The notes: a model not told the origin generated them from the sequence alone. Counted from the stretch's first letter, positions 32,720 to 63,243 are shown. The stretch: 64,000 bases of DNA from Candidatus Peribacteria bacterium (GCA_943354965.1 CALRDN010000004.1:13121-77120), one strand, 5' to 3'. Program-made: numbers and translations.

Positions 32720-32732
32720 CGTATAGACGCGC

Positions 32733-34307
32733 ATGAATACTACGGTTAACAAAATCGGCGGGAAGAATATGCTACAATTAGATGTTGTTCTCAACGCCAT
32801 AAATATTTTCGAGGAACGTGGAGAAAAAATCGTCTTGGTTGTATCGGCATTTGAGAAAGTCACAAACAAATTGTACAAAGCAATGGATGATCTTAATGAA
32901 AAAGATTATTCCGAAGACGACATAAATAAAGCCTTTGAAACCGTAAAAACAGCACATGATGCAGTCATAGAGAAATCTTTCGAAGGTGAATACAAAACAG
33001 AAGCCTATACCGCATATGAATCAATGTTTGCCGTTCTCAGGCAGGCACTTGTAAGTCACAAACAGATTTCAAAAGTGCTCATGCCCGTTGTAAATTCATA
33101 TGAAATTCGAGATCAGGTCATTGGCTTCGGAGAGGATATGTCGAGAACGTTATTAGGCGTCTACTTGCGACAAAATGGAAAACATGTACAAACCTACGGA
33201 GATGTAAAATGTAAAAAAACAACAGAAAAGGGCGGAAAAGTTTCAAACAGAAAAATAGAGAAAGGTATTCATGCGGCCATCAGAAAATCATTAGAAAGAG
33301 GAAAAGAAACTGACACAAAAGATGATAAAACTATTCGCATTTTTGGAGGTCATGTAGGCGGAACACCAAGAGGTATCTCCATCGACCAAGGACGTGGATA
33401 CAGTGATGTCACGGGCGTAGATGTAGCCATCGTATTGCGAGAAGAAGGAGAAAATATCAAAGCAACAAGATTCTTGAAAGATGTACGTGGCGTATACACT
33501 GCCAATCCCAAAAAACTCGATGGCAAAAAGAGTGCAGCTGTTTTACATGAAGACATATCGGTAAAAATAGCACTCGAGATTGCAGGTGCAGGGAGTAAAT
33601 TAATCAATCCCCGCGCACTTTCACGGGCACTCAAACATAAAATTCCCCTTGAAATACGTGATATTAATAATCTAAGAGACGATAAGGGAACAAGCATTTC
33701 TGGCAAAAATTTATTAACCCGTCATGCTTTCAAAACCATCGTAACAAATATGAATGTAGATGCTATTACCATTGATATTCCGGAAATGGCAGATGAGGCA
33801 GGTTTTATTGCAGCTATTTCCGCCATATTCGCAAAGCATGGCATAAGTATCGATGGTGTTTTCCCGGAAGGCACGAGCATCACATTCAGCATTCCCCTTC
33901 CAGAAGACGAATCTGATCGAAATGTAGAGCGCGAAAAACTGCAAGCCGTCATAAAAGATCTCAAAACCATCGAAGTAAATGACGAACAATATAATGTTGA
34001 TGATGACGATATTGAACTAGACCAAAGCCGTGCCTCCATATCGGTAGTCGGCAAGGAAATGCATGATCGAGTCGGAATACTTGCAAACATTTCCGGTGTT
34101 TTTTCTGCATTTGGTATTAATATCACCGCCGTCGTACACGGACGAAAACAAAATCGCATTCACTTCCTGATCGACAAACAAGACTGTCAACGCGCTGAAC
34201 AACTTCTTCATAGTATATTCGTTGATGGTGACTCTGAAGTGATACGAGAATTTATCGAGAGAAGAAGTGAGCAAACTAAAGCTCTTACCGCCACATTCAG
34301 GTCGTAA
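32733..34307 (+). CDS. lysC: aspartate kinase with C-terminal ACT domains
   Basis: 524 aa. NKIGGKNM ... VVSAFEKVTNKL amino-acid-kinase N-terminus and two ACT-like repeats at the C-terminus. Confidence 0.85.
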   Translation: MNTTVNKIGGKNMLQLDVVLNAINIFEERGEKIVLVVSAFEKVTNKLYKAMDDLNEKDYSEDDINKAFETVKTAHDAVIEKSFEGEYKTEAYTAYESMFAVLRQALVSHKQISKVLMPVVNSYEIRDQVIGFGEDMSRTLLGVYLRQNGKHVQTYGDVKCKKTTEKGGKVSNRKIEKGIHAAIRKSLERGKETDTKDDKTIRIFGGHVGGTPRGISIDQGRGYSDVTGVDVAIVLREEGENIKATRFLKDVRGVYTANPKKLDGKKSAAVLHEDISVKIALEIAGAGSKLINPRALSRALKHKIPLEIRDINNLRDDKGTSISGKNLLTRHAFKTIVTNMNVDAITIDIPEMADEAGFIAAISAIFAKHGISIDGVFPEGTSITFSIPLPEDESDRNVEREKLQAVIKDLKTIEVNDEQYNVDDDDIELDQSRASISVVGKEMHDRVGILANISGVFSAFGINITAVVHGRKQNRIHFLIDKQDCQRAEQLLHSIFVDGDSEVIREFIERRSEQTKALTATFRS

Positions 34308-39400: not shown

Positions 39401-41310
39401 CATTATTCAGAACCGTAACAACAGACGGCTCAGGCACCGCAAAAGTTTCATTCAAACTTCCTGATAATATTACATCATGGAGGGCTACGGCGCAGGGAGT
39501 AGATAGCAACATGAATGTCGGAGTCAGCATGAAGGCCATTCCGGTAGGACTCCCCTTCTTTATCGATGCGGTGATGGCTCCGGAATTTATCGTCTCAGAT
39601 AAGCCAATACTTCAAGTAGCAAGCTATGGTGATGCTATAACATCCGGTAATGAAGTTACCTATTCGTATGCAATTCCCGGACTCACCGTTGGGCAAGAAA
39701 CCGTTACGGGCAAAGGTCTCGGACGAGCTGATATTCCCCTACCAACACTCAAAATCGGAAAGTACAAAGTTACTATTTCGGCCACGACAAAAGGAAAAGA
39801 CGGAACAGAAATGAAAGATGCCATCGTCAGAGAGTTCACCGTCATTGAATCACGTCTCAGTAGTATCAAAATGTCAAAGATGGATCTCGCAGGAGCCAAA
39901 ACAGTTCCGAATGAGGTTTTTGGATCAACATCGGAGGTAACAATGAAGGTGCAGGAAGCCGAGAAGGCGCGCGCGTATGAAACTCTCTGGAACATGATAG
40001 ACCGATCGGGCGCGCGCCTCGACCAGCAAGCCGCCGAAGAGAAATCCGTTCAAATTTTGAAAAACTTCTTCAAAGAAGAAGTTCCGGAGCTCAGCACGAG
40101 CGTCTCGCTCGGTGAAATATACCAAGCGCCATCAGGAGGCATGCGTCTACTCCCCTACGCCAGCGACGACTTGGAACTCTCCGCAAAAACAGCACTACTA
40201 AGCGGAACAAGTGACACTACCGGCATCTCAAAAGAAAATCTCAGACTTTATTTCATGAAGATTCTCTCCGAAGAGCAGGCAAAGAAATTCCCTCTCGCCA
40301 CACGTGAACGATTCGTAATGGCCGTCAGCGGTCTCGCAGCACTCAATGAGCCGATATTACTTACTCTACAAAATCTCGCGAAAGAAGCTAACCTCACACC
40401 AATAGAGAAGCTCTACATTGCAGCAGGAGCCATGGCAATCGGCGACCAGCAAACAGCAGAAAACCTCGCCAAAGATCTTGTCACCAACAACCTTGAAAAA
40501 ATAAACGATTACAGTCGTCTCAAAGTCGGAAAAGACAATGATGATATTCTCGCCCATACAGCTCTCATGGCCGTGATCGCCGCAGACATTAACCTCTCCG
40601 AGTTCCAAAACTTGGCAACATATATAGCACAGCAACCTGGAAATGATATTCTTACCAGCCTGGAGCAGGTGTCTATCATCGAGAAGAGACTTCCATTTAT
40701 TCGTCAAGAGGATGCCACATTTGACTACTCCCTCAACGGAAAAAACGAACATGTAACGTTGAAAAATAATGAATCCTTCTCGGTGAATCTTTCAACGGAC
40801 ATGCTCAAATCTCTGACATTCGCAAATCCAAAAGGAGCGCTCACGGCTACCTTCCTCTATCATACACTCGCAAATAAATCTCAACTCAAATCCGATCCGA
40901 ACAAGAGTAATATCAAAATTTCTCACACCTACCAACTCCATGGCAAACCAACAACCTCCTGGTCAACAGGCGATATCGTATTCGTCGATATTCAGCCATC
41001 ATTAAGCCAAAATGCGCTAGAAGGCTGCTACACCATTACGGAACAACTCCCATCAAATCTCAAACCACTTTCATGGAATGTGCAGACGCTCGAAGAGGCA
41101 AATCAAAAAGAATATTACGGATCACGTCCATACGCGGTGAACGGTCAAACCGTCAAATACTGTGTATCAAAAGGATATAAACCAAGAATCCACTTCCCCG
41201 TCCGCGTCATCAACAAAGGAACATTCACTGCCGAACCAACCGTAATTCAAATGTCCTCAAAACCGGACATTGTAAACTCCACCAATGAAACTACTATCAC
41301 GGTTAAATAA
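36424..41310 (+). CDS. alpha-2-macroglobulin family protein, thioester-less, N-terminally membrane-anchored
   Basis: 1628 aa. TM anchor VIASITLGAALAAVALYFIF, many MG/Ig-like beta domains, Gly-rich stretch GGGAEKGGGGGDDVRSNFKDKALF, and DNITSWRATAQGV. A helical TED-like region reads LLPYASDDLEL where A2Ms carry PYGCxEQ. No CxEQ occurs anywhere in the protein. Confidence 0.85.
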   Translation: MFQPNRESTAKVIASITLGAALAAVALYFIFPTHRVPTLSAKDISLRAIQADTLGIEKDTGFILTSTKGISVDDVKEVLKVNPQTELTYTQKSANEIEFVATKPLTANKVYQFSVPTTEQKLSWAFQVKGEFSVTGTLPDTKQTGVPLDTGIEITFTHENFKNFEQFISISPKVEGRFEKHKKVLVFVPKKLETKTIYTVTVKKGLPLDGSPIMLQEDKVIRFETASSEAREPSIFELSANEMQFDTVNDQVMTIFGNSLNTGDKIEATIFQFSKAQDYIDSYKKLLGTNYWSTFNKYQFGDISKIATKKSVLNLETKESSGQSLVLFPEKLQKGLYLIALKHPAIDEPRYAWVQVTDIGSYIQLNKNNAIVWSHDLKTKNPSKNAKVTFSSGATATTDNQGMAIIPVPEEFHKAENGISTITVTSSNNDSVIAFVNNYYEDKRTSQDFWSYISTDRPTYKQTDSFSYWGVAKSRRPEEKVTEVHATFRSTSYDYEFTNGDGQPKLFDTTLPVTANGTFTGEWKLQNIPTGSYIMEVTANGIVIATKWISIEQYIKPAYAIDIDSSRENYFTGEKARINIFAHFFDGTAVANKRIRVTMRGYQNVEKILTTDGQGKTFIDFIPPASETVSNYPRYETIQATPESNEEGEISSDITLFVYTTDIKIETDTVRKNGKDTLNILVRKIDLTKDDMNGEVIPNYPVTLSPFETHYEKNKTGENYDFISKKVIPIYQYNAIKTLGTVATLTTDKNGKIAYTFDYEEGKFKTVEIEAKDSLQHIIKTTAYSYDYSGYMYFGESVDVTPSKSKDGFAINEKVELRITKEELPAPKGNYLYLKTNWEQTKGFASSDPNFSTTFGDGDSPGFSVDVISFTGSTYTKIGTGYAMIDQKQKDLDIEIQTDKTRYRPGENVELTVKTKKDGKNVSGDVNINLIDEAYYKLYYGTVDPLRSIYGNNMPWYSRQFTFYSHVTMTYGGGAEKGGGGGDDVRSNFKDKALFRTVTTDGSGTAKVSFKLPDNITSWRATAQGVDSNMNVGVSMKAIPVGLPFFIDAVMAPEFIVSDKPILQVASYGDAITSGNEVTYSYAIPGLTVGQETVTGKGLGRADIPLPTLKIGKYKVTISATTKGKDGTEMKDAIVREFTVIESRLSSIKMSKMDLAGAKTVPNEVFGSTSEVTMKVQEAEKARAYETLWNMIDRSGARLDQQAAEEKSVQILKNFFKEEVPELSTSVSLGEIYQAPSGGMRLLPYASDDLELSAKTALLSGTSDTTGISKENLRLYFMKILSEEQAKKFPLATRERFVMAVSGLAALNEPILLTLQNLAKEANLTPIEKLYIAAGAMAIGDQQTAENLAKDLVTNNLEKINDYSRLKVGKDNDDILAHTALMAVIAADINLSEFQNLATYIAQQPGNDILTSLEQVSIIEKRLPFIRQEDATFDYSLNGKNEHVTLKNNESFSVNLSTDMLKSLTFANPKGALTATFLYHTLANKSQLKSDPNKSNIKISHTYQLHGKPTTSWSTGDIVFVDIQPSLSQNALEGCYTITEQLPSNLKPLSWNVQTLEEANQKEYYGSRPYAVNGQTVKYCVSKGYKPRIHFPVRVINKGTFTAEPTVIQMSSKPDIVNSTNETTITVK

Positions 41311-49841: not shown

Positions 49842-50279
49842 ATGAGTAAGAAAACGAACCCAAAGCAGAAACAAGAGATAAGCAGCTACGAAGGTCGACA
49901 AGACCATATTCGTGAACTGAAGCTGCCCACTATCGAAACATGGGAAAACCAATACCCGGACAAGGATTATATCATCGACTTCACCGTACCGGAGTTTACC
50001 TGTATCTGCCCAAAAACCGGACTTCCGGACTTCGCCTCTATTCAGTTCATTTACGTACCACACAACGACTGCATCGAGCTGAAGTCATTCAAAGAGTACA
50101 TTCTCGCCTATCGTGAGCTTGGTATCTTCCATGAGCATGTCGTAAACAAAATGCTGGAAGACTTCGTTCGCTACTGCAAACCAAAAAAACTCGACATTAT
50201 CGGAGATTTCAATCCACGTGGCGGCATCAAAACCATCGTAAAAGCATCCTATGTCCGTCCAAACAGCAAACGAAAGTAA
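49842..50279 (+). CDS. queF: NADPH-dependent 7-cyano-7-deazaguanine (preQ0) reductase, unimodular type
   Basis: 145 aa. EFTCICPKTGLPDFA and the HEH motif region (IFHEHV). Confidence 0.9.
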   Translation: MSKKTNPKQKQEISSYEGRQDHIRELKLPTIETWENQYPDKDYIIDFTVPEFTCICPKTGLPDFASIQFIYVPHNDCIELKSFKEYILAYRELGIFHEHVVNKMLEDFVRYCKPKKLDIIGDFNPRGGIKTIVKASYVRPNSKRK

Positions 50280-50910
50280 AACGATCCTCATCGCTGAGAT
50301 GTTTGAAACGGTTCAGGGTGAAGGAAAATGGGTCGGAACTCCGGCGTTTTTTATTCGTACCGGTATGTGCAATTTAGCATGTATTTGGTGCGACACGCCT
50401 TATACGTGGAAAGAAGGAGAGACAACTTACGAGAAAAAAACACATGAAGAAGTGTTCCAACGTGTAGAGAAATCCCCTATTCAACACATCGTCGTTACCG
50501 GAGGTGAGCCAATGCTTCACCAAGAATTCATCCTCGCACTTCGAAAAAGGAATCCACATCGATTCATCGAGGTCGAAACCAATGGTACTATCCCAAGCAC
50601 CCTGCCGCCTGGAACCGTTAATCAATTCAATATCTCACCAAAACTCAGCAACAGCGGAAATAGCTGGTACAAGCTCAATCTTCGAGTTTATAACAGCATC
50701 TTTAAGTTCGTCGTACAATCACCCGACGATATCATCGAGATAGAAAATTTCACCGAACAGAATAACATCGACCGCACAAAAATTTTCTTAATGCCAGAGG
50801 GAACAACTCGGGATATACTACTATCACGTGCTAAGTGGCTTATTCCCCTCTGCCGGGAGAAAAAATTTCACTACAGCCCAAGACTTCATATTATGAAAAA
50901 TATTCGATGA
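50251..50910 (+). CDS. queE: 7-carboxy-7-deazaguanine synthase (radical SAM)
   Basis: 219 aa. ETVQGEGKWVG, and CNLACIWCDTPYTW (CxxxCxxC with the insert typical of QueE). Overlaps queF by 29 nt. Confidence 0.9.
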   Translation: MSVQTANESKTILIAEMFETVQGEGKWVGTPAFFIRTGMCNLACIWCDTPYTWKEGETTYEKKTHEEVFQRVEKSPIQHIVVTGGEPMLHQEFILALRKRNPHRFIEVETNGTIPSTLPPGTVNQFNISPKLSNSGNSWYKLNLRVYNSIFKFVVQSPDDIIEIENFTEQNNIDRTKIFLMPEGTTRDILLSRAKWLIPLCREKKFHYSPRLHIMKNIR

Positions 50911-51551
50911 AAAAAGCACTCGTACTTCACTCCGGAGGTCAGGATTCCACAACATGCTTAGCATGGGCCATGGAAAAATTCGATCAAATCGAAACGGTAA
51001 GTTTTGATTACGGCCAACGGCATAAAGTAGAGCTACAAGCCGCAAAACGCATCGCCAAAAAACTAAAACTCAAACACACCATCCTCAAAACGGATACTTT
51101 TTCTCAACTGGGGAAAAACGCCCTTACACACAAGATGAAAATCGAAAAAGGTAAAAATGGCCTACCGACAACATTCGTTCCGGGTAGAAATATTTTTTTT
51201 CTCACGATTGCCGCTGCGTACGCCTACTCTCACGGAATTACGGACATCGTGACTGGCGTCTGTCAGACCGATTATTCAGGCTATCCCGACTGTCGTGACG
51301 CAACGATACGTTTATTAGAGAAAACACTTTCCCTAGGTATGGATTACAATCTCAAAATTCACACTCCGCTCATGTTCCTCACAAAGGCGCAAACCGTTGA
51401 GATGATTGACGAGTTAGGATATTTTGATCTACTCAAACTCACACATACATGTTACGAAGGAAAGGCACCTCCCTGCGGTCGGTGCCCCGCCTGCAAACTC
51501 CGCGCAAAGGGCTTCAGAGAAGCAAAAAAACATGATCCACTTTTGAAGTAA
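50907..51551 (+). CDS. queC: 7-cyano-7-deazaguanine synthase
   Basis: ATG 50907 forms an ATGA overlap with the queE stop. LHSGGQDSTT PP-loop and the C-terminal zinc motif CYEGKAPPCGRCPAC. Confidence 0.95.
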   Translation: MKKALVLHSGGQDSTTCLAWAMEKFDQIETVSFDYGQRHKVELQAAKRIAKKLKLKHTILKTDTFSQLGKNALTHKMKIEKGKNGLPTTFVPGRNIFFLTIAAAYAYSHGITDIVTGVCQTDYSGYPDCRDATIRLLEKTLSLGMDYNLKIHTPLMFLTKAQTVEMIDELGYFDLLKLTHTCYEGKAPPCGRCPACKLRAKGFREAKKHDPLLK

Positions 51552-54360: not shown

Positions 54361-54361
54361 C

Positions 54362-54411: not shown

Positions 54412-54606
54412 CTACTTAGATCGCTTGTCGAGAACCTTCAAGCCCTGAGTGGAAACCTTGATTCTCTCAAAACGCTTCTTCAATGGGTTCCAAACACGCT
54501 TCCAAAGCAAGTTAGGCAAAAACCTACGCTTAGTGTGGCGCATGGAGTGACTGACGTTATTTCCAGCTAATGGCCTCTTTCCTGTGATTGAGCAGACGTT
54601 TGACAT
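54412..54606 (-). CDS. rpmB: 50S ribosomal protein L28
   Basis: 64 aa from ATG 54606: MSNVCSITGKRPLAGNNVSHSMRHTKRRFLPNL. Confidence 0.95.
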   Translation of the reverse strand: MSNVCSITGKRPLAGNNVSHSMRHTKRRFLPNLLWKRVWNPLKKRFERIKVSTQGLKVLDKRSK

Positions 54607-54754
54607 AAAATTGACGTTTAAAATACTTCGCTGAAGCTGGAACAATCTACCAAGAGATCTAGAGAAAAGCAAGCCAAAAGTCAGCTTTAGGCTCTACTTG
54701 TCACCATTTCGAAAGCATGGGAAACTGGAGCCATTCATTGACCAATACATTCAC

Positions 54755-56167
54755 ATGTCATCAAAAAACCCTTCTACTCGAACCGAAAACGACGCAATCG
54801 GCAATATTGAAGTGCCCAAGAATGCCTACTATGGCTCCTTCACCACTAGAGCACTAGAAAACTTCAAGATAAGTGGAATTACCGCTCCATGTAGCTTCAG
54901 AAAGGCAATCGCCTGCGTAAAATATGCCGCTGCCGAGACAAATCTCGAACTTAAAAAACTCGACCCTACATTAGCAAAAGCCATGATTACCGCCCTGCAG
55001 GAGTTCATCGGAGGACAGTTTGATCATGAGTATATGATCGATATTTTTCAGGCAGGCGCAGGGACACCATACAACATGAACCTCAACGAAATTATCGCCA
55101 ACCGAGCCAATGAGATACTCGATCCGAAGTCCGTAAAAGGATCGTACACGCCGGTAAATCCGAATAATCATGTAAACATGGCACAGTCGAGCAACGATGC
55201 TATTCCTACGGCCGTACGTATCGCAATCGCTTGGGAGTCGGAAGATCTGCAGCAGGAGATGAAAAACTTCATCGCGGCACTCAGGAGAAAAGCAAAAAAA
55301 TTCGCCAAAATTCTCAAGGTCGGACGCACGCATTTACAAGACGCCGTACCAGTTACCCTCGGCCAAGAGTTCGAGTCGCTCGCCGTCGCCGTAGAAAAAG
55401 ACCTGGCGCAGCTGAAACACGCCACCACCCTACTCTATGAAATTGGCCTCGGGGGCACCGCACTCGGCACGGGGATCAATACTCACAAGCAGTATCAAAA
55501 ACTCGTTACACGTCACTTAGCGAAGCTCACGGGTCTTCCACTCAAACCCACCGCCAATCTCTTCGAGACGACAAGTAATATGAATGTGTTCACGAGTGTC
55601 TCATCCGCCATCAGGAATTGCGCCATCACGATGCAGCGCATCGCCCAAGACCTCAAACTTCTCAACATGGGACCACTTGGCGGTATCGGAGAAATTATCC
55701 TTCCGGAAGTCGAACCGGGTTCATCCATCATGCCGGGAAAAGTTAATCCATCTGTTCCCGAGTGCATCCAGATGATCGCCTTCCAGGTTCAGGGCAATGA
55801 CCGTGCCGTCGAACTCTGCGTCATGCACGGCCAGCTCGAGCTCAACGTGATGACCCCGTTAATTCTCAAAACACTCACGGAAAACTGCTCACTCCTCCGC
55901 AACGGACTCGAGATGTTCCGCACCTTCTGCATCGACTCAATCATCGCCAATGAAAAACGCTGCCAAGAACTCCTAGAAAAATCTCTATGCGTAGCCACCG
56001 GCCTCAATCCCTACCTCGGATATCATCTCGTCGCCGAACTCGTCAACGAAGCACTGAAGCGAAAAACATCACTTCACGCGCTCATCCTCGAGAAAAAACT
56101 TATGCCAAAAGACAAGCTGGATGAAGTTCTCAATCCAAAAAATCTCACACAGCCGAACATCGGTTAA
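54755..56167 (+). CDS. aspartate ammonia-lyase / class II fumarase family lyase (aspartase-like)
   Basis: 470 aa from ATG 54755. Signature GSSIMPGKVNPSVPE, plus QSSNDAIPTA. The VPE after KVNP is aspartase-like while the G in MPGK is fumarase-like, so specificity is unresolved. Confidence 0.85.
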   Translation: MSSKNPSTRTENDAIGNIEVPKNAYYGSFTTRALENFKISGITAPCSFRKAIACVKYAAAETNLELKKLDPTLAKAMITALQEFIGGQFDHEYMIDIFQAGAGTPYNMNLNEIIANRANEILDPKSVKGSYTPVNPNNHVNMAQSSNDAIPTAVRIAIAWESEDLQQEMKNFIAALRRKAKKFAKILKVGRTHLQDAVPVTLGQEFESLAVAVEKDLAQLKHATTLLYEIGLGGTALGTGINTHKQYQKLVTRHLAKLTGLPLKPTANLFETTSNMNVFTSVSSAIRNCAITMQRIAQDLKLLNMGPLGGIGEIILPEVEPGSSIMPGKVNPSVPECIQMIAFQVQGNDRAVELCVMHGQLELNVMTPLILKTLTENCSLLRNGLEMFRTFCIDSIIANEKRCQELLEKSLCVATGLNPYLGYHLVAELVNEALKRKTSLHALILEKKLMPKDKLDEVLNPKNLTQPNIG

Positions 56168-56169
56168 AT

Positions 56170-57432
56170 TTAGACCAAATCCCCCACCCCGGCCACATCG
56201 GTCAACACCGCGGACTCCACTCCACGCGCGATCAACGCTGCGGCAATTCCAGGTAACTCTTTGCGATCATTGAACAATAACGCCGCATTCAACCTAAATA
56301 CTTTTGAGCCGTGTGTTAGTACCGTGATATACATTTGCTGACCGGCTCCAGGGCGTGCCACGGGCAAGATTTTCTCTCTAAACTCCTTCTCGCTTCCATG
56401 AAACACTCCGGTAAAACTGAGTAATGATTTTTTGATAATATTATTTCGAGCCAAGAAATCATAAACCGTCATGCCAGTCATACGGAAGTTCGGATCCACA
56501 AAATAAAATCGTTCGTCTTCAGTCATCAAGATATCAAAACCTCCCACTCCATACCATCCACGACGTCGTACCTCAGGCAAAATCTTCTCCAACAATACTT
56601 TATTTAATGGCTCAAAAAGCGGATCTTCCAAGCAATCTTCAATAATGCCACCCAAAAATGATCCATTCGGAGCAATCAACTGCTCGTGCCAGTTAATAAT
56701 TTCAATATCTTTTGAATTGTCATGCGGTACGCCGAACTGCACAGCAAAATTTCGATGAATTTTCACATACTCGCTCGCCTGAATCATACCCTCCAAGTGA
56801 CCAAAATCAGCAACTGCCCTATCTAAATCCTCCTGCGTGTGACAAATTCTCACACCATCACCGGATGAAGATGAAGTTACCTTGATAACACATGGAAGTG
56901 GCAACTGATTCACCTGTTGAAAACAAGCTCCATCCATAAACTCCTCATAAATCTCAGGTAAATACGCCTTCGGAATATATGAACTCATATTTCTCTTATC
57001 GTTCAACCAAATACTTCGATGTGGCGGAATCTGGAAAAATTCTTTGGCGCGAGGGTCCAAATACGGCTGTGCCATAACCAATTTATGCGGCTCAGCTAAA
57101 TCAAATAATGCATTTTTAATTAATTTATTTCTCTTGGAACCTCTCACTTTTCCCGTAATATTTTTTGGCAATAAAATAATCTGTTTTCTATCGACGCGAA
57201 TCACATCCAAATCATCTTTCAAAATTCGAAACGGTACACTATCCAAACATGCTGTGAAACATACCACCTTCACATTAGGACCAGCACACACCATCGGCCT
57301 TCCCGAAACCATCTCCTCTATCTCCGGCGGAACACCATTAAAAAAATGAGAATCCTCATCAGCAGGATATCCATAGAAATACTCCGTACCTTCCGGGAAA
57401 TAGCGAGAGAGTGAATATTTAGGTAATGACAT
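56170..57432 (-). CDS. ATP-grasp-type ligase, uncharacterised family (paralog 1)
   Basis: 420 aa from ATG 57432. PCVIKVTSSSSGDGVRI, GWYGVGGFDILMTEDERFYFVDPNFRMTG. The N-terminal ~150 aa (FFNGVPPEIEEMV, VCAGPNVK) match no domain I recognise. Confidence 0.8.
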   Translation of the reverse strand: MSLPKYSLSRYFPEGTEYFYGYPADEDSHFFNGVPPEIEEMVSGRPMVCAGPNVKVVCFTACLDSVPFRILKDDLDVIRVDRKQIILLPKNITGKVRGSKRNKLIKNALFDLAEPHKLVMAQPYLDPRAKEFFQIPPHRSIWLNDKRNMSSYIPKAYLPEIYEEFMDGACFQQVNQLPLPCVIKVTSSSSGDGVRICHTQEDLDRAVADFGHLEGMIQASEYVKIHRNFAVQFGVPHDNSKDIEIINWHEQLIAPNGSFLGGIIEDCLEDPLFEPLNKVLLEKILPEVRRRGWYGVGGFDILMTEDERFYFVDPNFRMTGMTVYDFLARNNIIKKSLLSFTGVFHGSEKEFREKILPVARPGAGQQMYITVLTHGSKVFRLNAALLFNDRKELPGIAAALIARGVESAVLTDVAGVGDLV

Positions 57433-57541
57433 GAAAGTTAAAAAACGAATAGGAATAGGCAAAAACAACGAAAATAGTATACATCATTATAAGAGAAAAA
57501 GCTAGTTCAGGGACTGGAAATACCCCCAAAAGCCGAGTAAA

Positions 57542-58885
57542 ATGTATGCAATGAATAAAAGCACAAAAGACCGCAGCCAGAAGCTCGTCCTCAAGCTCCT
57601 CCAAGAAAAACCACGAGGGACAAAAGGAACGCTCGTTCATATTGCAAAGAACATAATCTCGCAGAGGAAAGCCCTTATGGAACATGCTGCAGCCCACCGG
57701 TCCCCTCTCTATCTCATTGATGAGAATCATCTCCATAGTGATGTGCAGGCCTTCATGAAGGGATTTGACGCACACCTTCCCGGCCACGAGGCCTATTACG
57801 CGGTGAAGGCAAACTATCATCCATTTATTCTCAAAAAAGTAGTTCAGGATGGGCTCGGTCTCGATGTCTCAAGTGAGCGAGAACTAAAACTCGCCCTAGA
57901 GGCAGGTGCCAAAAAAATCCTCTTCAGCGGTCCAGGAAAAAGCGAACAAGATCTACAACTCGCCCTAAAACACGCCGATATTCTTACGGTGAATATGGAC
58001 AGTTTCGAGGAACTCGATCGTCTAGGAAAACTCACCAATCAAACCAAAACGCATATCCGTGCCGGAATACGTTTTTTTTCCTCCGTTCACGGAGCCTGGT
58101 CGAAATTCGGCATACCCCTCAACCAACTCAAAAAATTTTGGACCACGGCAGAAAAATACCCCTATATTCATCTCGAAGGACTTCACTTCCATATAAGCCT
58201 CAATCTCAAATCAGAAAAATACTCGCAAGTTCTCCGTGAACTCGCCGCATATTTAGAAAAAGATTTCACGAAAAAATTACGAGAAAAAATTAAGTTCATC
58301 GATATTGGAGGTGGCTATTATCCCGACAACGTCGAGGGATTTTATCCTTGGTCCGATCACTACCCATGGACACTTTCCGGCGGCCACATCAAGAAACTCG
58401 CCCATGAATACTACGGAGAAAAAGCATCGTTCAAAGACAAATACTTCATCACCCGAGCTGAGTCCCAAGAAGAAATGGCAAAAAAAATCGGCCAAACCAT
58501 AGAGAAGCATCTGAAGAAACTCGTTAACTGCGTCTACTACACCGAACCAGGCCGTATACTCGTCAACAACTCCACCTACATCATCGGAACCGTCATGGAC
58601 GTGAAGGACAAGGTCGTCATTACGGATATAGGTATCAACGCTACGGGCTGGGAGTTCGGGCAACACTTCTATATGCCAATTGTGAATCTCACCCACCCGG
58701 ATACAAAGGAAAAAGAAATACTCGTTTATGGATCCCTCTGCACTCCGCGAGACTTCTGGGGATATTACATTTATGCCAAAACCGTGAAAACAGGTGACCT
58801 CATCGTCATCCCAAATCAGGGCGCCTACAAGTTCACACTCGCGCAAACGTTCATCAAGGAGATTCCCCCAACGTTTACAATCTAG
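57542..58885 (+). CDS. PLP-dependent decarboxylase, Orn/DAP/Arg (alanine-racemase-fold, group IV) family
   Basis: 447 aa. YAVKANYHP (PLP lysine), GLHFHISL, DIGGGYY, TEPGRILV, GSLCTPRD. Substrate not assignable. Confidence 0.85.
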   Translation: MYAMNKSTKDRSQKLVLKLLQEKPRGTKGTLVHIAKNIISQRKALMEHAAAHRSPLYLIDENHLHSDVQAFMKGFDAHLPGHEAYYAVKANYHPFILKKVVQDGLGLDVSSERELKLALEAGAKKILFSGPGKSEQDLQLALKHADILTVNMDSFEELDRLGKLTNQTKTHIRAGIRFFSSVHGAWSKFGIPLNQLKKFWTTAEKYPYIHLEGLHFHISLNLKSEKYSQVLRELAAYLEKDFTKKLREKIKFIDIGGGYYPDNVEGFYPWSDHYPWTLSGGHIKKLAHEYYGEKASFKDKYFITRAESQEEMAKKIGQTIEKHLKKLVNCVYYTEPGRILVNNSTYIIGTVMDVKDKVVITDIGINATGWEFGQHFYMPIVNLTHPDTKEKEILVYGSLCTPRDFWGYYIYAKTVKTGDLIVIPNQGAYKFTLAQTFIKEIPPTFTI

Positions 58886-58903
58886 TTAACATCGCGACTT
58901 ATA

Positions 58904-60250
58904 TTAGAGCCTATCTGTTTTGACGAGCGTGCTCAACGAAGAAGACTCAACTCCAAGATCCAAAAGTCTCTGGGCATTTAATTTCAATGATGCAGCAGTA
59001 TCAAACAAAATTCCCGCATTGAAACGGAAGAGTCCGTCACGATGTGTAAGGGCGATAACACTCATGATCTGATCGCTGTGTCCTTTTCGTCCCAGTGGGG
59101 CAATCTTATTCAAGAAATCATCATAAGAGCCACGGAACAATCCGGCAAAACTAGCAGTAGCATGCGAAACCTGATGCGTCTGGTGCAAATAAATAAACGT
59201 AAACGTCGCCGTCATACGGAAGTTCGAATCGATGAAGTAGAACTCATTCTCATCAACAATCAAAACATCAATACCTCCAACACCGTACCAACCCATCGAA
59301 CGAACCTTCGGAAGAATTTCATTCAAGAGAACCTTGTTGACGTTTTCTATACCGGAAACTGTCTTCGAAGGATCTACAATTCCAGCCAAAAATCCACCAT
59401 GCTCCGTCGTCACCTGCTCATTATATCCAAGCATTTGAATTGGCTGAGTAGGATCCGCAGGAATACCGAATTGGACACATAAATTATGAGCACTCCGTAT
59501 AAACTGCTCAATAATAATCGTCGTAGTGATATTAGAAAATTCCTTCTTGATCGCCTCAAGCTCGGCCTGATCCATGGCGATACGTACGCCATCTCCGGAA
59601 CTGGAAGAAGAGACTTTGATAACCGATGGGAATGGAATATTCGCTGTGGATTGAGCAAACTCTTGACCATTCATATACGTTCCCAAAATCTTCGGTACGT
59701 ATTTTTCTGAAATGTACTGCTCTCTACTAAATTTATCATTAAGATTAATCGTTACCCTAGGAGGAATCTGATACAGGTGCTGAAGATGTTCATCCATGAA
59801 TGGTTGCGCCTGAATAAGCTGTCCCGAAGAAAGAGATGAAGCAATGGACTCCTTCACAAGACGGTTTCTCTCTTCTCCGGAAATATGATTTGTTACCGCG
59901 CTGGAAAGACGAATAGCCGAGCTCTTCTCTATCAATTCGACACCAAAATGCTGTGTCATGATATCCCATGTCAACGGATCCATTGATGGAGAAAATACAA
60001 CGCCTTTTACATTCGGACCAGCACATACGAGGCTTCGTGCAGCCACTAACTCTTCCATCCACGGCGGAACCCCATTGAAAAAGCTCGAGTCCTGACCCGA
60101 TGGAAATGAATAAAAATAAGCCGTATTGGAAGGAAAAAACTCTGACAACCCCTGAAAAGTTCGGGGAGTTGGAGTTGGATGAACGAGTTGAGATGAGCTG
60201 AGAGTAGGTGCGTATCCGTTTCTGATCTGTAAGGCTCCAATAGGTGTCAT
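58904..60250 (-). CDS. ATP-grasp-type ligase, uncharacterised family (paralog 2)
   Basis: 448 aa, collinear with paralog 1. FFNGVPPWMEELV, VCAGPNVK, PSVIKVSSSSSGDGVRI, GWYGVGGIDVLIVDENEFYFIDSNFRMTA. Confidence 0.8.
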   Translation of the reverse strand: MTPIGALQIRNGYAPTLSSSQLVHPTPTPRTFQGLSEFFPSNTAYFYSFPSGQDSSFFNGVPPWMEELVAARSLVCAGPNVKGVVFSPSMDPLTWDIMTQHFGVELIEKSSAIRLSSAVTNHISGEERNRLVKESIASSLSSGQLIQAQPFMDEHLQHLYQIPPRVTINLNDKFSREQYISEKYVPKILGTYMNGQEFAQSTANIPFPSVIKVSSSSSGDGVRIAMDQAELEAIKKEFSNITTTIIIEQFIRSAHNLCVQFGIPADPTQPIQMLGYNEQVTTEHGGFLAGIVDPSKTVSGIENVNKVLLNEILPKVRSMGWYGVGGIDVLIVDENEFYFIDSNFRMTATFTFIYLHQTHQVSHATASFAGLFRGSYDDFLNKIAPLGRKGHSDQIMSVIALTHRDGLFRFNAGILFDTAASLKLNAQRLLDLGVESSSLSTLVKTDRL

Positions 60251-60430
60251 ATAATGACATAAAGAAATAAAACCATCCGACGAGTAGCGTACGAAAAAAC
60301 GCCACAGAATATCAATTCTTATGGGACTATAGGTAGCTGTCTCTCAACCGCCGCGGCGGGTAAAGGATCTTCCGAAAAATGTTCGAGTTGAGAGTTCATA
60401 ACGATTTTTATCGCAAGAAACGTTATCCCC

Positions 60431-60497
60431 GAACAAAATAAAAATCAAGAGAAAATAGAGCATTGTAGCTTAAGTTTGGCTACAGGATGCTCTATTT
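60431..60497 (-). terminator. intrinsic terminator downstream of the 187-aa gene
   Basis: The 17-nt arm AAATAGAGCATTGTAGC (60453..60469) pairs with GCTACAggATGCTCTATTT (60479..60497). On the minus strand it is followed by UCUCUUGAUUUUUAUUUUG. Confidence 0.7.
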
Positions 60498-60522
60498 ACA
60501 CTTCGACAAATACGTCGTTATG

Positions 60523-61086
60523 TTAGTACTCCAGAAGTCCCCTCTTGCGAAGCTGCTCATGGGCCCCTACCCCACCCCACGTAGCTACGGCACGTTTAAT
60601 GCCCATAGTCTGAAGCGATCGACCAGGGTTACCTCCCTTCAACGGTCTACCATTCTTATCCAAAGGAGGAAGTTCAATATGCCAGTTTTCACCGCCCCAG
60701 TTATCCTCCCTGTTCGCCTGTGTATCGGAGAACATCGTCGCCCCTACAGCAACTGCCGTATGGAAGAAGATTCTCTGATAATCGCGCCACGTAGTCCATA
60801 AATTCCACGTAATCATATCAACAAGCTGATCCACCGTGACATCATCGCCAACCTCAAGCTGTCTTCTCAAATGATCCTGAAGCTGCTTATTGATCCTAAC
60901 TTGTCCACGATACTCATCATAATTTTTAGGATCCTCCATGTAGTCCATCGCGCCCTGTACGCCGATATCGCCAGGATTACGATTATCAATACCTTTAAAC
61001 TTCGGAAGCTTCTCGAGCACCACCGGACGCTCATGAAAAGGACGCGTATCATTACTATAAGCAGAAGGAAAACCATCGAATGCCAT
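60523..61086 (-). CDS. hypothetical protein (187 aa), no recognisable domain
   Basis: Clean ORF with its own promoter-like element and terminator. Trp-rich (ITWNLWTTWRDY, DNWGGENWH). Confidence 0.7.
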   Translation of the reverse strand: MAFDGFPSAYSNDTRPFHERPVVLEKLPKFKGIDNRNPGDIGVQGAMDYMEDPKNYDEYRGQVRINKQLQDHLRRQLEVGDDVTVDQLVDMITWNLWTTWRDYQRIFFHTAVAVGATMFSDTQANREDNWGGENWHIELPPLDKNGRPLKGGNPGRSLQTMGIKRAVATWGGVGAHEQLRKRGLLEY

Positions 61087-61119
61087 AAAAGTATGGGTAA
61101 AATAATAGCCTGGATGAAA

Positions 61120-61149
61120 ATCCTACTGCATGGCTATGAAGATTGTCAA
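61120..61149 (-). promoter_or_regulatory. promoter-like TTGACA-18-TAGGAT upstream of the 187-aa gene
   Basis: Minus strand: -35 is the reverse complement of 61144..61149, and -10 is the reverse complement of 61120..61125. Confidence 0.4.
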
Positions 61150-61278
61150 ATTTATGGGATAATTCGCTGTCTCCAAGCGGACGGATACATCACACTATCA
61201 TTATCCATTTTACTAGTCCCATGCCATACATTCGGATATAGGTATAAACATACTACCCAGACTATCTTCGCCTGTCAC

Positions 61279-62259: not shown

Positions 62260-63243
62260 ATGTTTTTTCGCGCGCGGACAAAAAAGAGCTCAAGTCATCA
62301 GGCACGATACGGTAGAGGCCTCGTTTTGACGAGCCGTTCGTCGCGTCGTACGCCCCGAACAAGCGGCAAAAGCCTCATCTCAAATCTCTCACTCCCCTCT
62401 CTTACATCGGTAAAAAGAGTTCTTCTCGCGATGATTGCCATTGGCATAGTAGGAGCGGTTTCCTATTTCGTCTGGTTCTCGGGATATTTCAAAATTACCA
62501 AAATCTACGTTCAATATGAGGAGTTTCAAAATGAAAACAGTGACATTCTAAATTATTTCGACACCCTCAAGGGAAAAAATTACCTATTCACTGACCCAGC
62601 AGAGAAAAAAACTGATATCCAAAAAGCTCATCCGGAGATCAGTAATATTATCATTCAAAAAATATTCCCGGACACTATCAAAATTAGTTTCACCGAGTTC
62701 CCTATTACCGCCAACGTCGAATCAATCGTAAATGGAAAATCGGTAGAAAAAGTGCTCATCAACTCGGTAGGAATGGTTATATATCACGATACGGAAAACC
62801 CAAATCTTCCCTATATCAAGATGATAACAACAGCCGAAATTGATGATACTATGACGCTTCCGTCAGTCGAAGTACCCGGCGAAAATAGCACGCCACCTGC
62901 ACCGATCGTACCTCCGACGCCAACACAACCAGCAGAAAAACCACTTCCGGTTATTTCTCAAGAATATCTCACCTATATGCTCAGCGCGACAAAAAGTTTC
63001 GAGGAACGATTTGGCATGAAAATTACAGAGTTACAACTTCTCCCGCAGGCACGAGAGCTGCATTTCAAAACAGAAAAAAACTTCGAAATATGGCTTGATA
63101 TTCAAATTCCTTTTGAAAAGCAGTTCCTCAAACTCAAAAAAGCGATGACCACACTCGACATATACAAAACACCACTTTTCTACATCGATCTACGAGTCTC
63201 CGGAGCAAACGGCGAAAAAGTTATTTTCAAAAGAAAAAAATAG
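62260..63243 (+). CDS. ftsQ: cell division protein FtsQ/DivIB (POTRA domain)
   Basis: 327 aa. Basic cytoplasmic N-terminus, one TM helix, POTRA-like ITKIYVQYEEFQNENSDILNYF, and a Pro-rich insert. Confidence 0.8.
   Translation: MFFRARTKKSSSHQARYGRGLVLTSRSSRRTPRTSGKSLISNLSLPSLTSVKRVLLAMIAIGIVGAVSYFVWFSGYFKITKIYVQYEEFQNENSDILNYFDTLKGKNYLFTDPAEKKTDIQKAHPEISNIIIQKIFPDTIKISFTEFPITANVESIVNGKSVEKVLINSVGMVIYHDTENPNLPYIKMITTAEIDDTMTLPSVEVPGENSTPPAPIVPPTPTQPAEKPLPVISQEYLTYMLSATKSFEERFGMKITELQLLPQARELHFKTEKNFEIWLDIQIPFEKQFLKLKKAMTTLDIYKTPLFYIDLRVSGANGEKVIFKRKK

What the first reader, a model, noticed from the sequence alone, without database searches (positions are those of the whole stretch)
54755..61086. 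Two paralogous ATP-grasp ligases bracketing an Orn/DAP-type PLP decarboxylase: candidate uncharacterised small-molecule or cell-envelope modification module
Two full-length paralogs (56170..57432 and 58904..60250, minus strand) share collinear motifs along their whole length: FFNGVPP, VCAGPNVK, IKV(T/S)SSSSGDGVRI, GWYGVGG(F/I)D, and FYF(V/I)D(P/S)NFRMT. Their C-terminal halves look like ATP-grasp nucleotide-binding folds. Their ~150-aa N-terminal halves match nothing I recognise. They flank a plus-strand group-IV PLP decarboxylase (YAVKANYHP, GLHFHISL, EPGR, CTPRD). Packing is tight: the decarboxylase stop and the paralog-2 stop are 18 nt apart, and the stop of an aspartase-like lyase and the paralog-1 stop are 2 nt apart. 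A 187-aa protein with no recognisable domain follows, with its own promoter-like element and terminator. I see no carrier protein, transporter or regulator. Known precedents for pairing an ATP-grasp ligase with a DAP-decarboxylase-like enzyme include butirosin BtrJ/BtrK and the tabtoxin genes. ATP-grasp ligases also build peptidoglycan cross-bridges, for example D-Asp ligase. In a genome with so little biosynthesis, two sequential ATP-dependent ligations plus a decarboxylation, next to an aspartate/fumarate lyase, is unexpected.
Basis: partly seen in the sequence, partly recalled or inferred. Interest (0 to 1): 0.72.

Follow-up and report, generated by a model that had tools for sequence, protein, structure and literature searches.

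The report
CPR ligase–decarboxylase module of unknown product
Two related ATP-dependent ligases and a vitamin-B6 decarboxylase in this Peribacteria genome form a gene module conserved across many candidate-phyla-radiation bacteria. It probably makes an unknown amide-linked amine, and it is neither lysine biosynthesis nor any characterised pathway.

Summary
Two full-length paralogous ATP-grasp genes (40% identity, E 4e-112) flank a fold-type-III PLP decarboxylase, next to an aspartate ammonia-lyase, at the stated coordinates.

- **Ligases.** They belong to a compact CPR-restricted family. Their only close solved relative is S. aureus LdmS (L-Asp–L-Met ligase). The "unrecognisable" N-terminal half is LdmS domain N. 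Catalytic residues are kept; LdmS's Asp-pocket residues are not.
- **Decarboxylase.** It is not lysA. It scores below the lysA cut-off. DAPDC's RPxxY and CE(S/T)GD motifs are replaced by GWEFG and CTPRD, the latter as in SbnH.
- **Linkage.** All 19 metagenomic orthologues (≥43% identity) with enough flank have this ATP-grasp convergent next to them. More distant relatives sit beside other ATP-grasp ligases.
- **187-aa gene.** It is an in-frame deletion remnant of a ~430-aa VanX-like zinc peptidase, a recurrent third partner.
- **Near-identical relative.** It also carries a third ligase paralog.

No carrier protein, riboswitch or known pathway match was found.

Best reading: the ligase forms an amide and the decarboxylase removes the alpha-carboxylate of the conjugated amino acid, as SbnH, FigC and BtrK do. 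Substrates are unknown; aspartate is a weak candidate. I rate it a new variant of a known kind, of moderate interest.

The parts
54755..56167 (+). Aspartate ammonia-lyase (AspA-type class II lyase), convergent with ligase paralog 1. It possibly supplies or consumes L-aspartate.
   Evidence: Pfam Lyase_1 2e-89 plus FumaraseC_C. NCBIfam PRK12273 scores 575.5 bits against a cut-off of 510. It is linked to the module only in the Peribacteria/Gracilibacteria-like relatives. There it occurs in two different arrangements, including aspA-deC on one strand 24-28 nt apart in L010, L062 and L063.
56170..57432 (-). ATP-grasp ligase paralog 1 (420 aa), a member of the LdmS-like CPR family.
   Evidence: 40% identical to paralog 2, E 4e-112. 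NCBIfam LdmS 70.9 bits, far below the 475 cut-off. The invariant ATP, Mg and catalytic residues are present in the alignment. Single-copy members of its clade also pair with the decarboxylase: L023, L027, L072, L096.
57433..57541 (.). 109-nt divergent intergenic region between ligase paralog 1 and the decarboxylase. It probably holds a shared promoter region (inferred).
   Evidence: Gene geometry. One weak promoter-like match lies at 57515-57543 (+), no better than chance. No Rfam match.
57542..58885 (+). Fold-type-III (alanine-racemase-fold) PLP decarboxylase of a CPR subfamily dedicated to the ATP-grasp ligase. It is not LysA.
   Evidence: Pfam Orn_Arg_deC_N 6e-31 and Orn_DAP_Arg_deC 1e-7. 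lysA TIGR01048 scores 165 bits against a cut-off of 298. PDB hits are DAPDC 2p3e, SbnH 6knh, FigC/FslC 7kh2 and BtrK. Invariant K89, GGG, EPGR, GWE(F/Y)G and CTP(R/H)D. 19 of 19 orthologues with flank have the ligase adjacent.
58904..60250 (-). ATP-grasp ligase paralog 2 (448 aa), convergent with the decarboxylase. This is the arrangement conserved across CPR.
   Evidence: Pfam CPSase_L_D2 4e-8 and ATP-grasp_3. NCBIfam LdmS 91 bits. AlphaFold pLDDT 93.7. Foldseek top hits are LdmS 7r8q/7r8p, E 3e-22, TM 0.72/0.82. More than 120 full-length CPR homologues.
60523..61086 (-). In-frame deletion remnant (187 aa) of a ~430-aa VanX-like (LAS-fold) zinc peptidase. It lacks the FRSxxRQ and H-x6-D motifs and keeps ExxH, so it is probably inactive.
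   Evidence: Alignment with full-length neighbours of ligase+decarboxylase in L007, L008, L021, L027 and L048. blastn shows about 717 bp missing relative to L007. A model of full-length relative P0124 has pLDDT 88.7. Foldseek top hit is VanX 1r44 (prob 1.0, E 1.9e-3), followed by VanY, LdcB and hedgehog N-domain.

Best explanation
This is a cytoplasmic two-enzyme module (three enzymes ancestrally) found in CPR/Patescibacteria.

**Step 1 (ligation).** An LdmS-like ATP-grasp ligase activates a carboxylate as an acyl-phosphate and condenses it with an amino group of an amino acid. Two paralogs are present here. That the proteins are catalytically competent ligases is shown by conserved residues and fold. 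The substrates are inferred.

**Step 2 (decarboxylation).** The dedicated alanine-racemase-fold PLP decarboxylase removes the alpha-carboxylate of the conjugated amino acid. This leaves an amide-linked amine, either a peptidyl or acyl amine or an N-acyl diamine. The logic is that of SbnH, FigC/FslC and BtrK, which decarboxylate products of a partner ligase. That the enzyme is a decarboxylase and not DAPDC is shown. That it acts on the ligase product is inferred.

**Third partner.** A VanX-like zinc peptidase, the ancestral third partner, would hydrolyse the amide or supply a precursor. It has decayed in this genome.

**Aspartate.** In this lineage the linked aspartate ammonia-lyase makes L-aspartate a candidate substrate. 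This inference is weak.

**Two paralogs.** They have near-identical pocket motifs. They probably do the same chemistry on related substrates rather than two obligatory sequential steps.
For: **Ligase family**
- More than 120 full-length homologues, all CPR where named.
- 52 species loci.
- Only 71 cluster representatives at E<=1e-30 among 1.84 billion.
- Best solved relative is LdmS, by profile (E 5e-29) and by fold over the full length.
- LdmS residues K136, K173, D288, D301, N303 and R305 (PMC9486568) align with the invariant K173, K212, D328, D341, N343 and R345.

**Linkage**
- The decarboxylase is the only widely recurrent neighbour, present in 16 of 55 ligase loci from several CPR lineages.
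- In the reverse test, 19 of 19 decarboxylase orthologues (>=43% identity) with flank have the ligase convergent next to them.
- Relatives at 32-42% identity always follow other ATP-grasp or L-amino-acid-ligase genes, often 2-3 in tandem.

**Decarboxylase**
- The PLP lysine, GGG, EPGR and the catalytic Cys loop are invariant.
- The C-loop reads CTP(R/H)D, as in SbnH (CTPKD). The basic residue there (SbnH K347, FigC H357) binds the conjugate's carboxylate (PMC7857480).
- That paper places FigC, SbnH, AcsE, MccE and BtrK with DAPDC in one clade of conjugate decarboxylases. The best PDB hits here are DAPDC, SbnH, FigC/FslC and BtrK.

**VanX-like partner**
- It lies next to the ligase+decarboxylase pair in nine loci: L007, L008, L021, L027, L048, L061, L070, L072 and L087.
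- LAS fold and motifs.
Against: - No substrate is identified.
- LdmS's aspartate-pocket residues Y252, N255, N307 and S309 align to F287, G290, T347 and T/M349. Aspartate specificity therefore cannot be transferred.
- About 70% of ligase loci have no decarboxylase within 10 kb, so the ligase product must also be useful on its own.
- The order of the two steps is not determined.
- AspA linkage is confined to one syntenic lineage.
- Nothing was tested biochemically.
- The NJ tree used for paralog history is rough.
Confidence: 0.45

Rival explanations
1. Reverse order. The decarboxylase first turns a free amino acid into an amine, for example lysine, ornithine or DAP into cadaverine, putrescine or lysine. 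The ATP-grasp ligase then couples that amine to a carboxylate. This is the logic of MfnA/MfnD in methanofuran synthesis and of glutathionylspermidine synthetase.
For: - Tight ligase-decarboxylase linkage fits either order.
- ATP-grasp genes beside the more distant decarboxylase relatives hit the MfnD (tyramine-glutamate ligase) and PylC models weakly.
- Ligases without a neighbouring decarboxylase could use a scavenged amine.
Against: - The residues DAPDC uses for its small substrate are replaced (RPxxY to GWEFG; CE(S/T)GD to CTPRD).
- The C-loop carries the basic residue that SbnH and FigC use for a distal carboxylate of a larger conjugate.
- A ~45-aa insertion after GGGYY is also specific to the subfamily.
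Confidence: 0.22
2. Peptidoglycan-related module. The ligases add an amino acid to a peptidoglycan precursor, as D-Asp ligase Aslfm or Ddl do. The decarboxylase supplies lysine or modifies DAP in a stem peptide. The VanX-like enzyme trims D-Ala-containing peptides.
For: - The third partner has the LAS fold of VanX, VanY and LdcB, enzymes that act on D-amino-acid peptide bonds.
- The ligase + D,D-peptidase + fold-type-III PLP enzyme trio recalls the VanC/VanXY/VanT clusters (my knowledge).
- DAPDC and D-Orn/D-Lys decarboxylase are among the nearest relatives.
- The module lies near ftsQ (62260..63243).
- In L059 the VanX-like gene neighbours a penicillin-binding protein.
Against: - There is no significant similarity to Ddl beyond the superfamily level (E 1e-3 to 1e-4).
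- No Mur or Fem genes lie in the conserved neighbourhood.
- DAP-binding motifs are absent from the decarboxylase.
- The closest structural relative makes a free dipeptide.
Confidence: 0.15
3. Dipeptide synthesis and turnover, as in the LdmS/HmrA pair. The ligase makes a free dipeptide for storage or signalling and the peptidase recycles it. The decarboxylase acts on a separate free amino acid and is linked only through shared metabolism.
For: - LdmS is encoded in an operon with the peptidase HmrA (PMC9486568).
- Here the ligase family recurs with a VanX-like peptidase.
- Many ligases occur without the decarboxylase.
Against: - It does not explain why every orthologue of the decarboxylase sits beside the ligase.
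- It does not explain why related decarboxylases always accompany other ATP-grasp ligases.
Confidence: 0.1
4. Unrelated neighbours. The decarboxylase is an ordinary lysA (or, as NCBI names a close relative, an alanine racemase), and the ligases merely happen to lie nearby.
For: - The best NCBIfam hit is lysA.
- NCBI calls the 93%-identical protein "alanine racemase".
- The window encodes aspartate kinase and homoserine dehydrogenase, so some aspartate-family metabolism exists.
Against: - lysA scores 165 bits against a cut-off of 298.
- DAPDC specificity motifs are replaced.
- Linkage holds in 19 of 19 cases across divergent lineages.
- The decarboxylase-type N and C domains score far better than Ala_racemase_N, which reaches only 26.9 bits.
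Confidence: 0.04

Closest known systems
LdmS, L-aspartate–L-methionine ligase of Staphylococcus aureus (PDB 7R8P/7R8Q; PMC9486568)
   Same: - Four-domain ATP-grasp fold, including the unusual N domain. TM is 0.72/0.82 over about 417 columns.
- Profile E 5e-29.
- Conserved ATP-binding lysines, Mg ligands and catalytic Arg.
- Encoded next to a peptidase.
   Different: - Only about 20% identity.
- NCBIfam score is 71-91 bits against a cut-off of 475.
- Asp-pocket residues are not conserved.
- The N-loop is acidic (PxGEDSxFFN) rather than hydrophobic.
- It is CPR-restricted, whereas LdmS homologues were reported only in Firmicutes.
- It is partnered with a PLP decarboxylase.
SbnH / FigC(FslC) / AcsE citryl-amino-acid decarboxylases with their NIS synthetases (PMC7857480)
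   Same: - An alanine-racemase-fold decarboxylase encoded beside the ligase whose product it decarboxylates.
- SbnH and FigC/FslC are the second and third best PDB hits.
- The C-loop CTP(R/H)D has a basic residue at the position of SbnH K347 and FigC H357.
   Different: - The partner ligase is an ATP-grasp, not an IucA/IucC-type NIS synthetase.
- No siderophore transport genes are present.
- FslC model scores 105 bits against a cut-off of 500.
- The specificity helix reads GWE(F/Y)G.
- The subfamily has a specific ~45-aa insertion.
BtrJ/BtrK of butirosin biosynthesis
   Same: An ATP-grasp ligase paired with a DAPDC-like decarboxylase that acts on the ligated glutamyl group. BtrK is among the PDB hits, E 8e-16.
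   Different: BtrJ and BtrK work on the carrier protein BtrI. No carrier protein occurs in the window or among conserved neighbours. The host is not an antibiotic producer.
Diaminopimelate decarboxylase LysA
   Same: Best-scoring named family. Same fold, PLP lysine, GGG and EPGR motifs.
   Different: - Below the curated cut-off (165 vs 298 bits).
- RPxxY is replaced by GWE(F/Y)G, and CE(S/T)GD by CTP(R/H)D.
- It is obligately linked to a ligase.
VanX D-Ala-D-Ala dipeptidase and the LAS zinc peptidases (for the degraded third gene)
   Same: Foldseek top hit is VanX 1r44, followed by VanY, LdcB and hedgehog N-domain. The motifs FRSxxRQ, H-x6-D and ExxH are invariant in full-length relatives.
   Different: - Twice the size of VanX, with large helical insertions.
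- No Pfam, NCBIfam or PDB sequence match.
- The window copy has lost about 239 codons, including H-x6-D.

Membership tests
ATP-grasp superfamily | ATP-grasp fold with two ATP-binding lysines, Mg-binding Asp/Asp/Asn and a catalytic Arg | tested here: met
   - Pfam hits for paralog 2.
- Model fold.
- K173, K212, D328, D341, N343 and R345 are invariant in 119 sequences. They align with LdmS K136, K173, D288, D301, N303 and R305.
- Paralog 1 has the same residues.
LdmS (L-Asp–L-Met ligase) equivalog | NCBIfam NF047900 score above the 475-bit cut-off | tested here: not met
   70.9 bits (paralog 1) and 91.1 bits (paralog 2).
LdmS (L-Asp–L-Met ligase) equivalog | Asp-recognising polar pocket Y252/N255/N307/S309, shown essential by mutagenesis | tested here: not met
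   These align to F287, G290, T347 and T/M349.
LdmS (L-Asp–L-Met ligase) equivalog | Four-domain architecture with a dedicated N domain | tested here: met
   Foldseek alignment of about 417 columns to 7r8q, TM 0.72/0.82.
Diaminopimelate decarboxylase (LysA) | TIGR01048 score above the 297.9-bit cut-off | tested here: not met
   165.5 bits, split into two stretches.
Diaminopimelate decarboxylase (LysA) | DAP-binding motifs: RPxxY on the specificity helix and CE(S/T)GD on the Cys loop. Their roles are from my knowledge of DAPDC structures. | tested here: not met
   Aquifex DAPDC has RPSIY and CETGD where the window protein has GWEFGQ and CTPRD. The replacements are invariant across 12 orthologues.
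Alanine-racemase-fold PLP decarboxylases | PLP lysine, glycine loop, EPGR and catalytic Cys loop, with a barrel plus C-terminal sheet domain | tested here: met
   Pfam Orn_Arg_deC_N and Orn_DAP_Arg_deC. K89, G256-G258, E335-R338 and C400 are invariant.
Conjugate (ligase-product) decarboxylases such as SbnH and FigC | Encoded with the ligase that makes the substrate, with a basic residue three positions after the catalytic Cys | tested here: met
   19 of 19 orthologues lie next to the ligase. CTP(R/H)D compares with SbnH CTPKD. Activity on a conjugate was not tested.
Conjugate (ligase-product) decarboxylases such as SbnH and FigC | Partner is an NIS synthetase and the product is a citrate siderophore | tested here: not met
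   No IucA/IucC-type gene occurs in the window or in conserved neighbourhoods. FslC model scores 105 bits against a cut-off of 500.
BtrJ/BtrK-type carrier-protein pathway | A small acyl-carrier protein encoded with the pair | tested here: not met
   No carrier-protein domain among called genes or recurrent neighbours.
VanX/LAS zinc peptidases (187-aa gene) | Zn ligands H-x6-D and ExxH plus the catalytic Arg motif | tested here: not met
   Full-length relatives have all three motifs and a VanX-like fold. The window copy keeps only ExxH (GGENWH) after a ~717-bp deletion.
Aspartate ammonia-lyase | NCBIfam subfamily PRK12273 above cut-off | tested here: met
   575.5 bits against 510. The stricter TIGR00839 gives 500 against 681, so enzyme-level specificity (AspA vs FumC) is probable but not certain.
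D-aspartate ligase (Aslfm) / Ddl peptidoglycan ligases | Specific similarity to Aslfm or Ddl and use of UDP-MurNAc-peptide or D-Ala | tested here: inconclusive
   Only superfamily-level hits: Dala_Dala_lig_C E 1.7e-3 and PRK12767 E 8e-3. No Aslfm profile was available. Substrate use is not testable here.

The most novel reading that the evidence does not exclude
The ligase–decarboxylase pair makes a previously unknown small amide-linked amine. Candidates are an N-acyl or aminoacyl diamine, or a beta-alanyl-type amide made from aspartate. Many CPR bacteria would use it in place of a pathway they lack, such as a polyamine surrogate or a cell-wall or cofactor building block. The VanX-like peptidase and two further uncharacterised families would complete a CPR-specific pathway. 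Those families are a 523-aa protein that is fused to the ligase in one organism and a ~300-aa protein.
Probability: 0.3. Interest if true: 0.75.

Novelty: new variant of a known kind. Interest (0 to 1): 0.55.

Why it matters
CPR bacteria have very small genomes with few biosynthetic pathways. A conserved, uncharacterised ATP-consuming pathway retained in such genomes is likely to make something they cannot scavenge.

This work gives a concrete, testable enzyme pair: a soluble ligase and a soluble PLP decarboxylase, both with confident models and clear active-site residues. It also corrects misleading database names ("alanine racemase", "hypothetical protein").

It extends the rule that DAPDC-like decarboxylases outside polyamine metabolism usually act on ligase products. 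The partner ligases now include ATP-grasp enzymes, both in CPR and in other uncultured lineages.

It also shows gene decay within the module. The peptidase is truncated and a third ligase paralog has been lost between near-identical genomes.

Tried and rejected
1. **Sequence identification of the 187-aa protein.** Pfam, NCBIfam and PDB sequence searches of it and its full-length relatives found nothing. Only structure prediction plus Foldseek identified the LAS fold.
2. **Homologue search with the truncated protein.** It returned a single fragment. Repeating with the alignment of full-length neighbours worked.
3. **Riboswitch or RNA leader that could name the ligand.** No Rfam match in 54000-62500.
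4. **Promoter and terminator scan.** Counts were no better than shuffled sequence.
5. **The 523-aa and ~306-aa recurrent neighbours.** No Pfam, NCBIfam or PDB sequence match.
6. **Literature search.** I searched for ATP-grasp + decarboxylase in Patescibacteria, and for L-amino-acid ligase + DAP decarboxylase clusters. Nothing relevant turned up.
7. **Transfer of LdmS's Asp/Met specificity.** Rejected because the pocket residues differ.
8. **"lysA plus unrelated neighbours".** Rejected.
9. **Carrier-protein (BtrI-like) pathway.** Rejected because no such gene is present.

Full report
**1. Observation**

The ORF map matches the finding:
- a class II lyase at 54698/54755..56167 (+)
- ATP-grasp paralog 1 at 56170..57432 (-)
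- a PLP decarboxylase at 57542..58885 (+)
- ATP-grasp paralog 2 at 58904..60250 (-)
- a 187-aa ORF at 60523..61086 (-)

The stop-to-stop gaps are 2 nt and 18 nt, as stated. The paralogs are 40% identical over 408 residues, E 4e-112, and all quoted motifs are present.

Family assignments:
- Pfam places paralog 2 in the ATP-grasp families.
- Pfam places the decarboxylase in Orn_Arg_deC_N / Orn_DAP_Arg_deC.
- Pfam places the lyase in Lyase_1 + FumaraseC_C.
- NCBIfam puts the lyase above the cut-off of the aspartate ammonia-lyase subfamily model, 575 vs 510 bits.

The contig is a 188.7-kb metagenome assembly. Its closest genomes are Candidatus Peribacteria/Peregrinibacteria MAGs, with 88-92% protein identity.

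**2. The ligases**

Paralog 2 has more than 120 full-length homologues. Every named one comes from CPR lineages: Uhrbacteria, Kerfeldbacteria, Peribacteria, Gracilibacteria and Parcubacteria. A scan of one genome per species found 52 loci, in Peribacteria, Doudna-, Magasanik-, Nomura-, Kerfeld- and Saccharibacteria among others.

The family is compact. Among 1.84 billion cluster representatives only 71 score E<=1e-30. Scores then fall to about 1e-17 and below for partial matches to roughly 400-aa proteins.

The family is conserved over its whole length, N-terminal part included. Motifs include LSxYFPxGTxYFYxFPxGEDSxFFN and EELVAAR.

The only close solved relative is S. aureus LdmS, an L-aspartate–L-methionine ligase:
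- profile E 2e-27 to 5e-29
- NCBIfam LdmS is the best hit for both paralogs, but at 71 and 91 bits against a 475-bit cut-off

An AlphaFold model of paralog 2 (pLDDT 93.7) superposes on LdmS over about 417 columns with TM 0.72/0.82. It lies well ahead of PGM1-like peptide ligases, PurK and biotin carboxylases.

LdmS's ATP-binding lysines, Mg ligands and catalytic arginine align with residues that are invariant in 119 family members. Both paralogs should therefore be active ligases.

The residues that recognise aspartate in LdmS are Y252, N255, N307 and S309, and they are essential by mutagenesis. They align with F, G, T and T/M here. Substrate specificity cannot be transferred.

**3. The decarboxylase is not lysA**

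- Its best named family is lysA, but at 165 bits against a cut-off of 298.
- Its best PDB hits are a DAPDC, then SbnH (6knh), FigC/FslC (7kh2), further DAPDCs and BtrK.
- Twelve orthologues share an invariant PLP lysine, glycine loop, EPGR and catalytic cysteine.
- Where Aquifex DAPDC has RPSIY on the specificity helix and CETGD on the cysteine loop, this subfamily has an invariant GWE(F/Y)G and CTP(R/H)D.
- SbnH has CTPKD at the same place. In SbnH and FigC the basic residue there (K347, H357) binds a carboxylate of the citryl conjugate (PMC7857480).
- That paper defines a clade of polyamine-unrelated decarboxylases: FigC, SbnH, AcsE, MccE and BtrK, together with DAPDC and D-ODC. Most of them act on amino acids already conjugated by a partner ligase.
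- NCBI names a 93%-identical protein "alanine racemase". That name rests on a 26.9-bit domain hit and is misleading.

**4. Linkage**

Starting from the ligase, the decarboxylase is the only broadly recurrent neighbour. It lies convergent and immediately downstream in 16 of 55 loci from several CPR lineages, at 45-50% identity to the window protein outside the close Peribacteria relatives.

The reverse test started from a profile of the decarboxylase in metagenomes:
- All 19 loci with >=43% identity and usable flank have a member of this ligase family convergent next to it. Some of these loci duplicate genome loci.
- Loci with 32-42% identity lack this ligase family. Every one of the ten examined has a different ATP-grasp or L-amino-acid-ligase gene directly upstream on the same strand, often two or three in tandem.

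The decarboxylase clade is thus a dedicated partner of ATP-grasp ligases. The ligase family also exists on its own.

The ligase-decarboxylase-ligase arrangement is restricted to close relatives (L007-L010, L061-L063).

A rough neighbour-joining tree places paralogs 1 and 2 in two different clades. In single-ligase genomes each clade pairs with the decarboxylase on its own. The paralogs are therefore old, and two sequential ligations are not implied. Their pocket and N-loop motifs are nearly the same.

**5. Aspartate ammonia-lyase**

It adjoins the module only in the Peribacteria/Gracilibacteria-like lineage, where surrounding synteny (PHP, AhpC, Lgt) is also kept.

It does survive a rearrangement. 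In the window it is convergent with paralog 1. In L010, L062 and L063 it lies 24-28 nt upstream of the decarboxylase on the same strand.

This gives modest support for aspartate or fumarate as a linked metabolite, no more.

**6. The 187-aa gene is a remnant**

Its homologues next to the ligase+decarboxylase pair in L007, L008, L021, L027 and L048 are 420-470 aa. The window protein aligns to both ends and lacks about 250 central residues.

At the DNA level the window lacks about 717 bp relative to L007, with the flanks joining in frame.

The full-length family is small and CPR-only, with 15 clusters. It has no Pfam, NCBIfam or PDB sequence match. Its invariant motifs are FRSxxRQ, NNAHAGGGAVD (H-x6-D) and ENWH (ExxH).

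A model of full-length relative P0124 (pLDDT 88.7) has VanX as its top Foldseek hit (prob 1.0, E 1.9e-3, TM 0.54 on the target). VanY, LdcB and hedgehog N-domains follow, which together define the LAS zinc-peptidase fold. The E-values are weak because of large insertions, but fold and motifs agree.

The window copy has lost the arginine motif and H-x6-D, so it is probably inactive.

L061 is a relative with 98-99% protein identity. It carries the full-length peptidase, a third ligase paralog upstream of it, and two extra genes between paralog 2 and the decarboxylase. The module is therefore being remodelled between near-identical genomes.

**7. Wider neighbourhood network**

An uncharacterised 523-aa family (motif STADHHGP):
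- lies directly upstream of paralog-1-type ligases in L004, L020 and L035
- lies upstream of the VanX-like gene in L059
- is fused to the ligase in a 942-aa protein, P0143

A ~306-aa uncharacterised family recurs beside the ligase, the decarboxylase or the 523-aa gene in seven loci.

RimK-like ATP-grasp genes adjoin the ligase in L006, L049 and L054, and lie about 800 nt from the VanX-like gene in L060.

None of these occurs in the window.

**8. Mechanism**

Shown:
- two catalytically intact LdmS-fold ligases
- an intact alanine-racemase-fold decarboxylase that lacks DAP-binding motifs
- obligate linkage of the decarboxylase to ATP-grasp ligases

Inferred:
- The ligase forms an amide through an acyl-phosphate.
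- The decarboxylase removes the alpha-carboxylate of the conjugated amino acid, giving an amide-linked amine. The arginine on the cysteine loop would bind a distal carboxylate.
- The VanX-like enzyme hydrolyses the amide or supplies a precursor.

All proteins lack obvious export signals and the ligase needs ATP, so the chemistry is cytoplasmic (inference).

Rivals:
- the reverse order, with decarboxylation first (MfnA/MfnD logic)
- a peptidoglycan role
- a dipeptide synthesis-and-turnover pair like LdmS/HmrA
- chance adjacency, which is essentially excluded

No riboswitch, carrier protein, transporter or regulator was found in the window. No literature on this module was found.

**9. Verdict**

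The module is a new variant of a known design: an amide-forming ligase plus a DAPDC-like decarboxylase. It is built from an LdmS-like ATP-grasp family and a decarboxylase subfamily, both apparently specific to CPR bacteria. Its substrates and product are unknown.

Interest is moderate. The module is widespread in a poorly understood radiation and easy to test biochemically. No evidence yet shows chemistry outside known types.

Noticed in passing
L061:3373-4635 and L061:4659-5912 (relative with 98-99% protein identity); the corresponding window region is 60251..61278: The near-identical relative carries a third paralog of the ligase and a full-length VanX-like gene between DUF1405 and paralog 2. 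It also has two extra genes (117 and 358 aa) between paralog 2 and the decarboxylase. The window lacks all of these, so the module is changing quickly between close genomes.
   Followed up: partly
P0143 (942 aa); L004:6332-7903; L059:5279-6913: A 523-aa uncharacterised family (motif STADHHGP, no Pfam, NCBIfam or PDB match) sits upstream of the ligase or of the VanX-like gene. In one organism it is fused to the ligase (32% identity, E 5e-84 to the free-standing form).
   Followed up: partly
L004:9254-10174, L019, L024, L031, L033, L048:6196-7104, L072:4957-5850: A ~300-aa uncharacterised family recurs next to the ligase, the decarboxylase or the 523-aa gene. It has no database match.
   Followed up: partly
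L080-L093 and L099 (metagenome loci), e.g. L081:967-7194: Decarboxylases 32-42% identical to the window protein always follow other ATP-grasp or L-amino-acid-ligase genes, often 2-3 in tandem. One is an 800-aa LAL–Ddl fusion. L084 adds a sodium/solute symporter, and L088 and L089 add a DUF1611 gene. These are uncharacterised oligopeptide-like clusters.
   Followed up: partly
window 31583..34307: Homoserine dehydrogenase and an aspartate kinase with ACT domains lie side by side. This Peribacteria genome therefore keeps part of the aspartate-family pathway, which bears on whether it could make DAP or lysine.
   Followed up: no
window 36424..41310: A 1628-aa bacterial alpha-2-macroglobulin-like protein, followed by Memo-like, GIDE/TMEM43-like and MFS transporter genes.
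   Followed up: no
window 49842..51551: QueF, QueE and QueC genes (queuosine precursor synthesis) in a row, followed by lgt.
   Followed up: no
L056:5789-7758: The ligase gene is split into two tblastn pieces about 650 nt apart. This could be an insertion, an intervening element or a pseudogene.
   Followed up: no
L006:10554-11534, L049, L054, L060:9006-9896: RimK/glutathione-synthetase-like ATP-grasp genes lie next to the LdmS-like ligase in three loci, and about 800 nt from the VanX-like gene in one.
   Followed up: no
L004:3763-4593 (also L020, L035): A CntK_N (DAP-epimerase-like racemase) gene lies a few kb from the paralog-1-type ligase in the Gracilibacteria-labelled relatives. It may hint at D-amino-acid chemistry.
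   Followed up: no
window 57542..58885: NCBI annotates the 93%-identical protein MCX6734109.1 as "alanine racemase" and paralog 1's counterpart as "hypothetical protein". Both names understate what the sequences show.
   Followed up: yes
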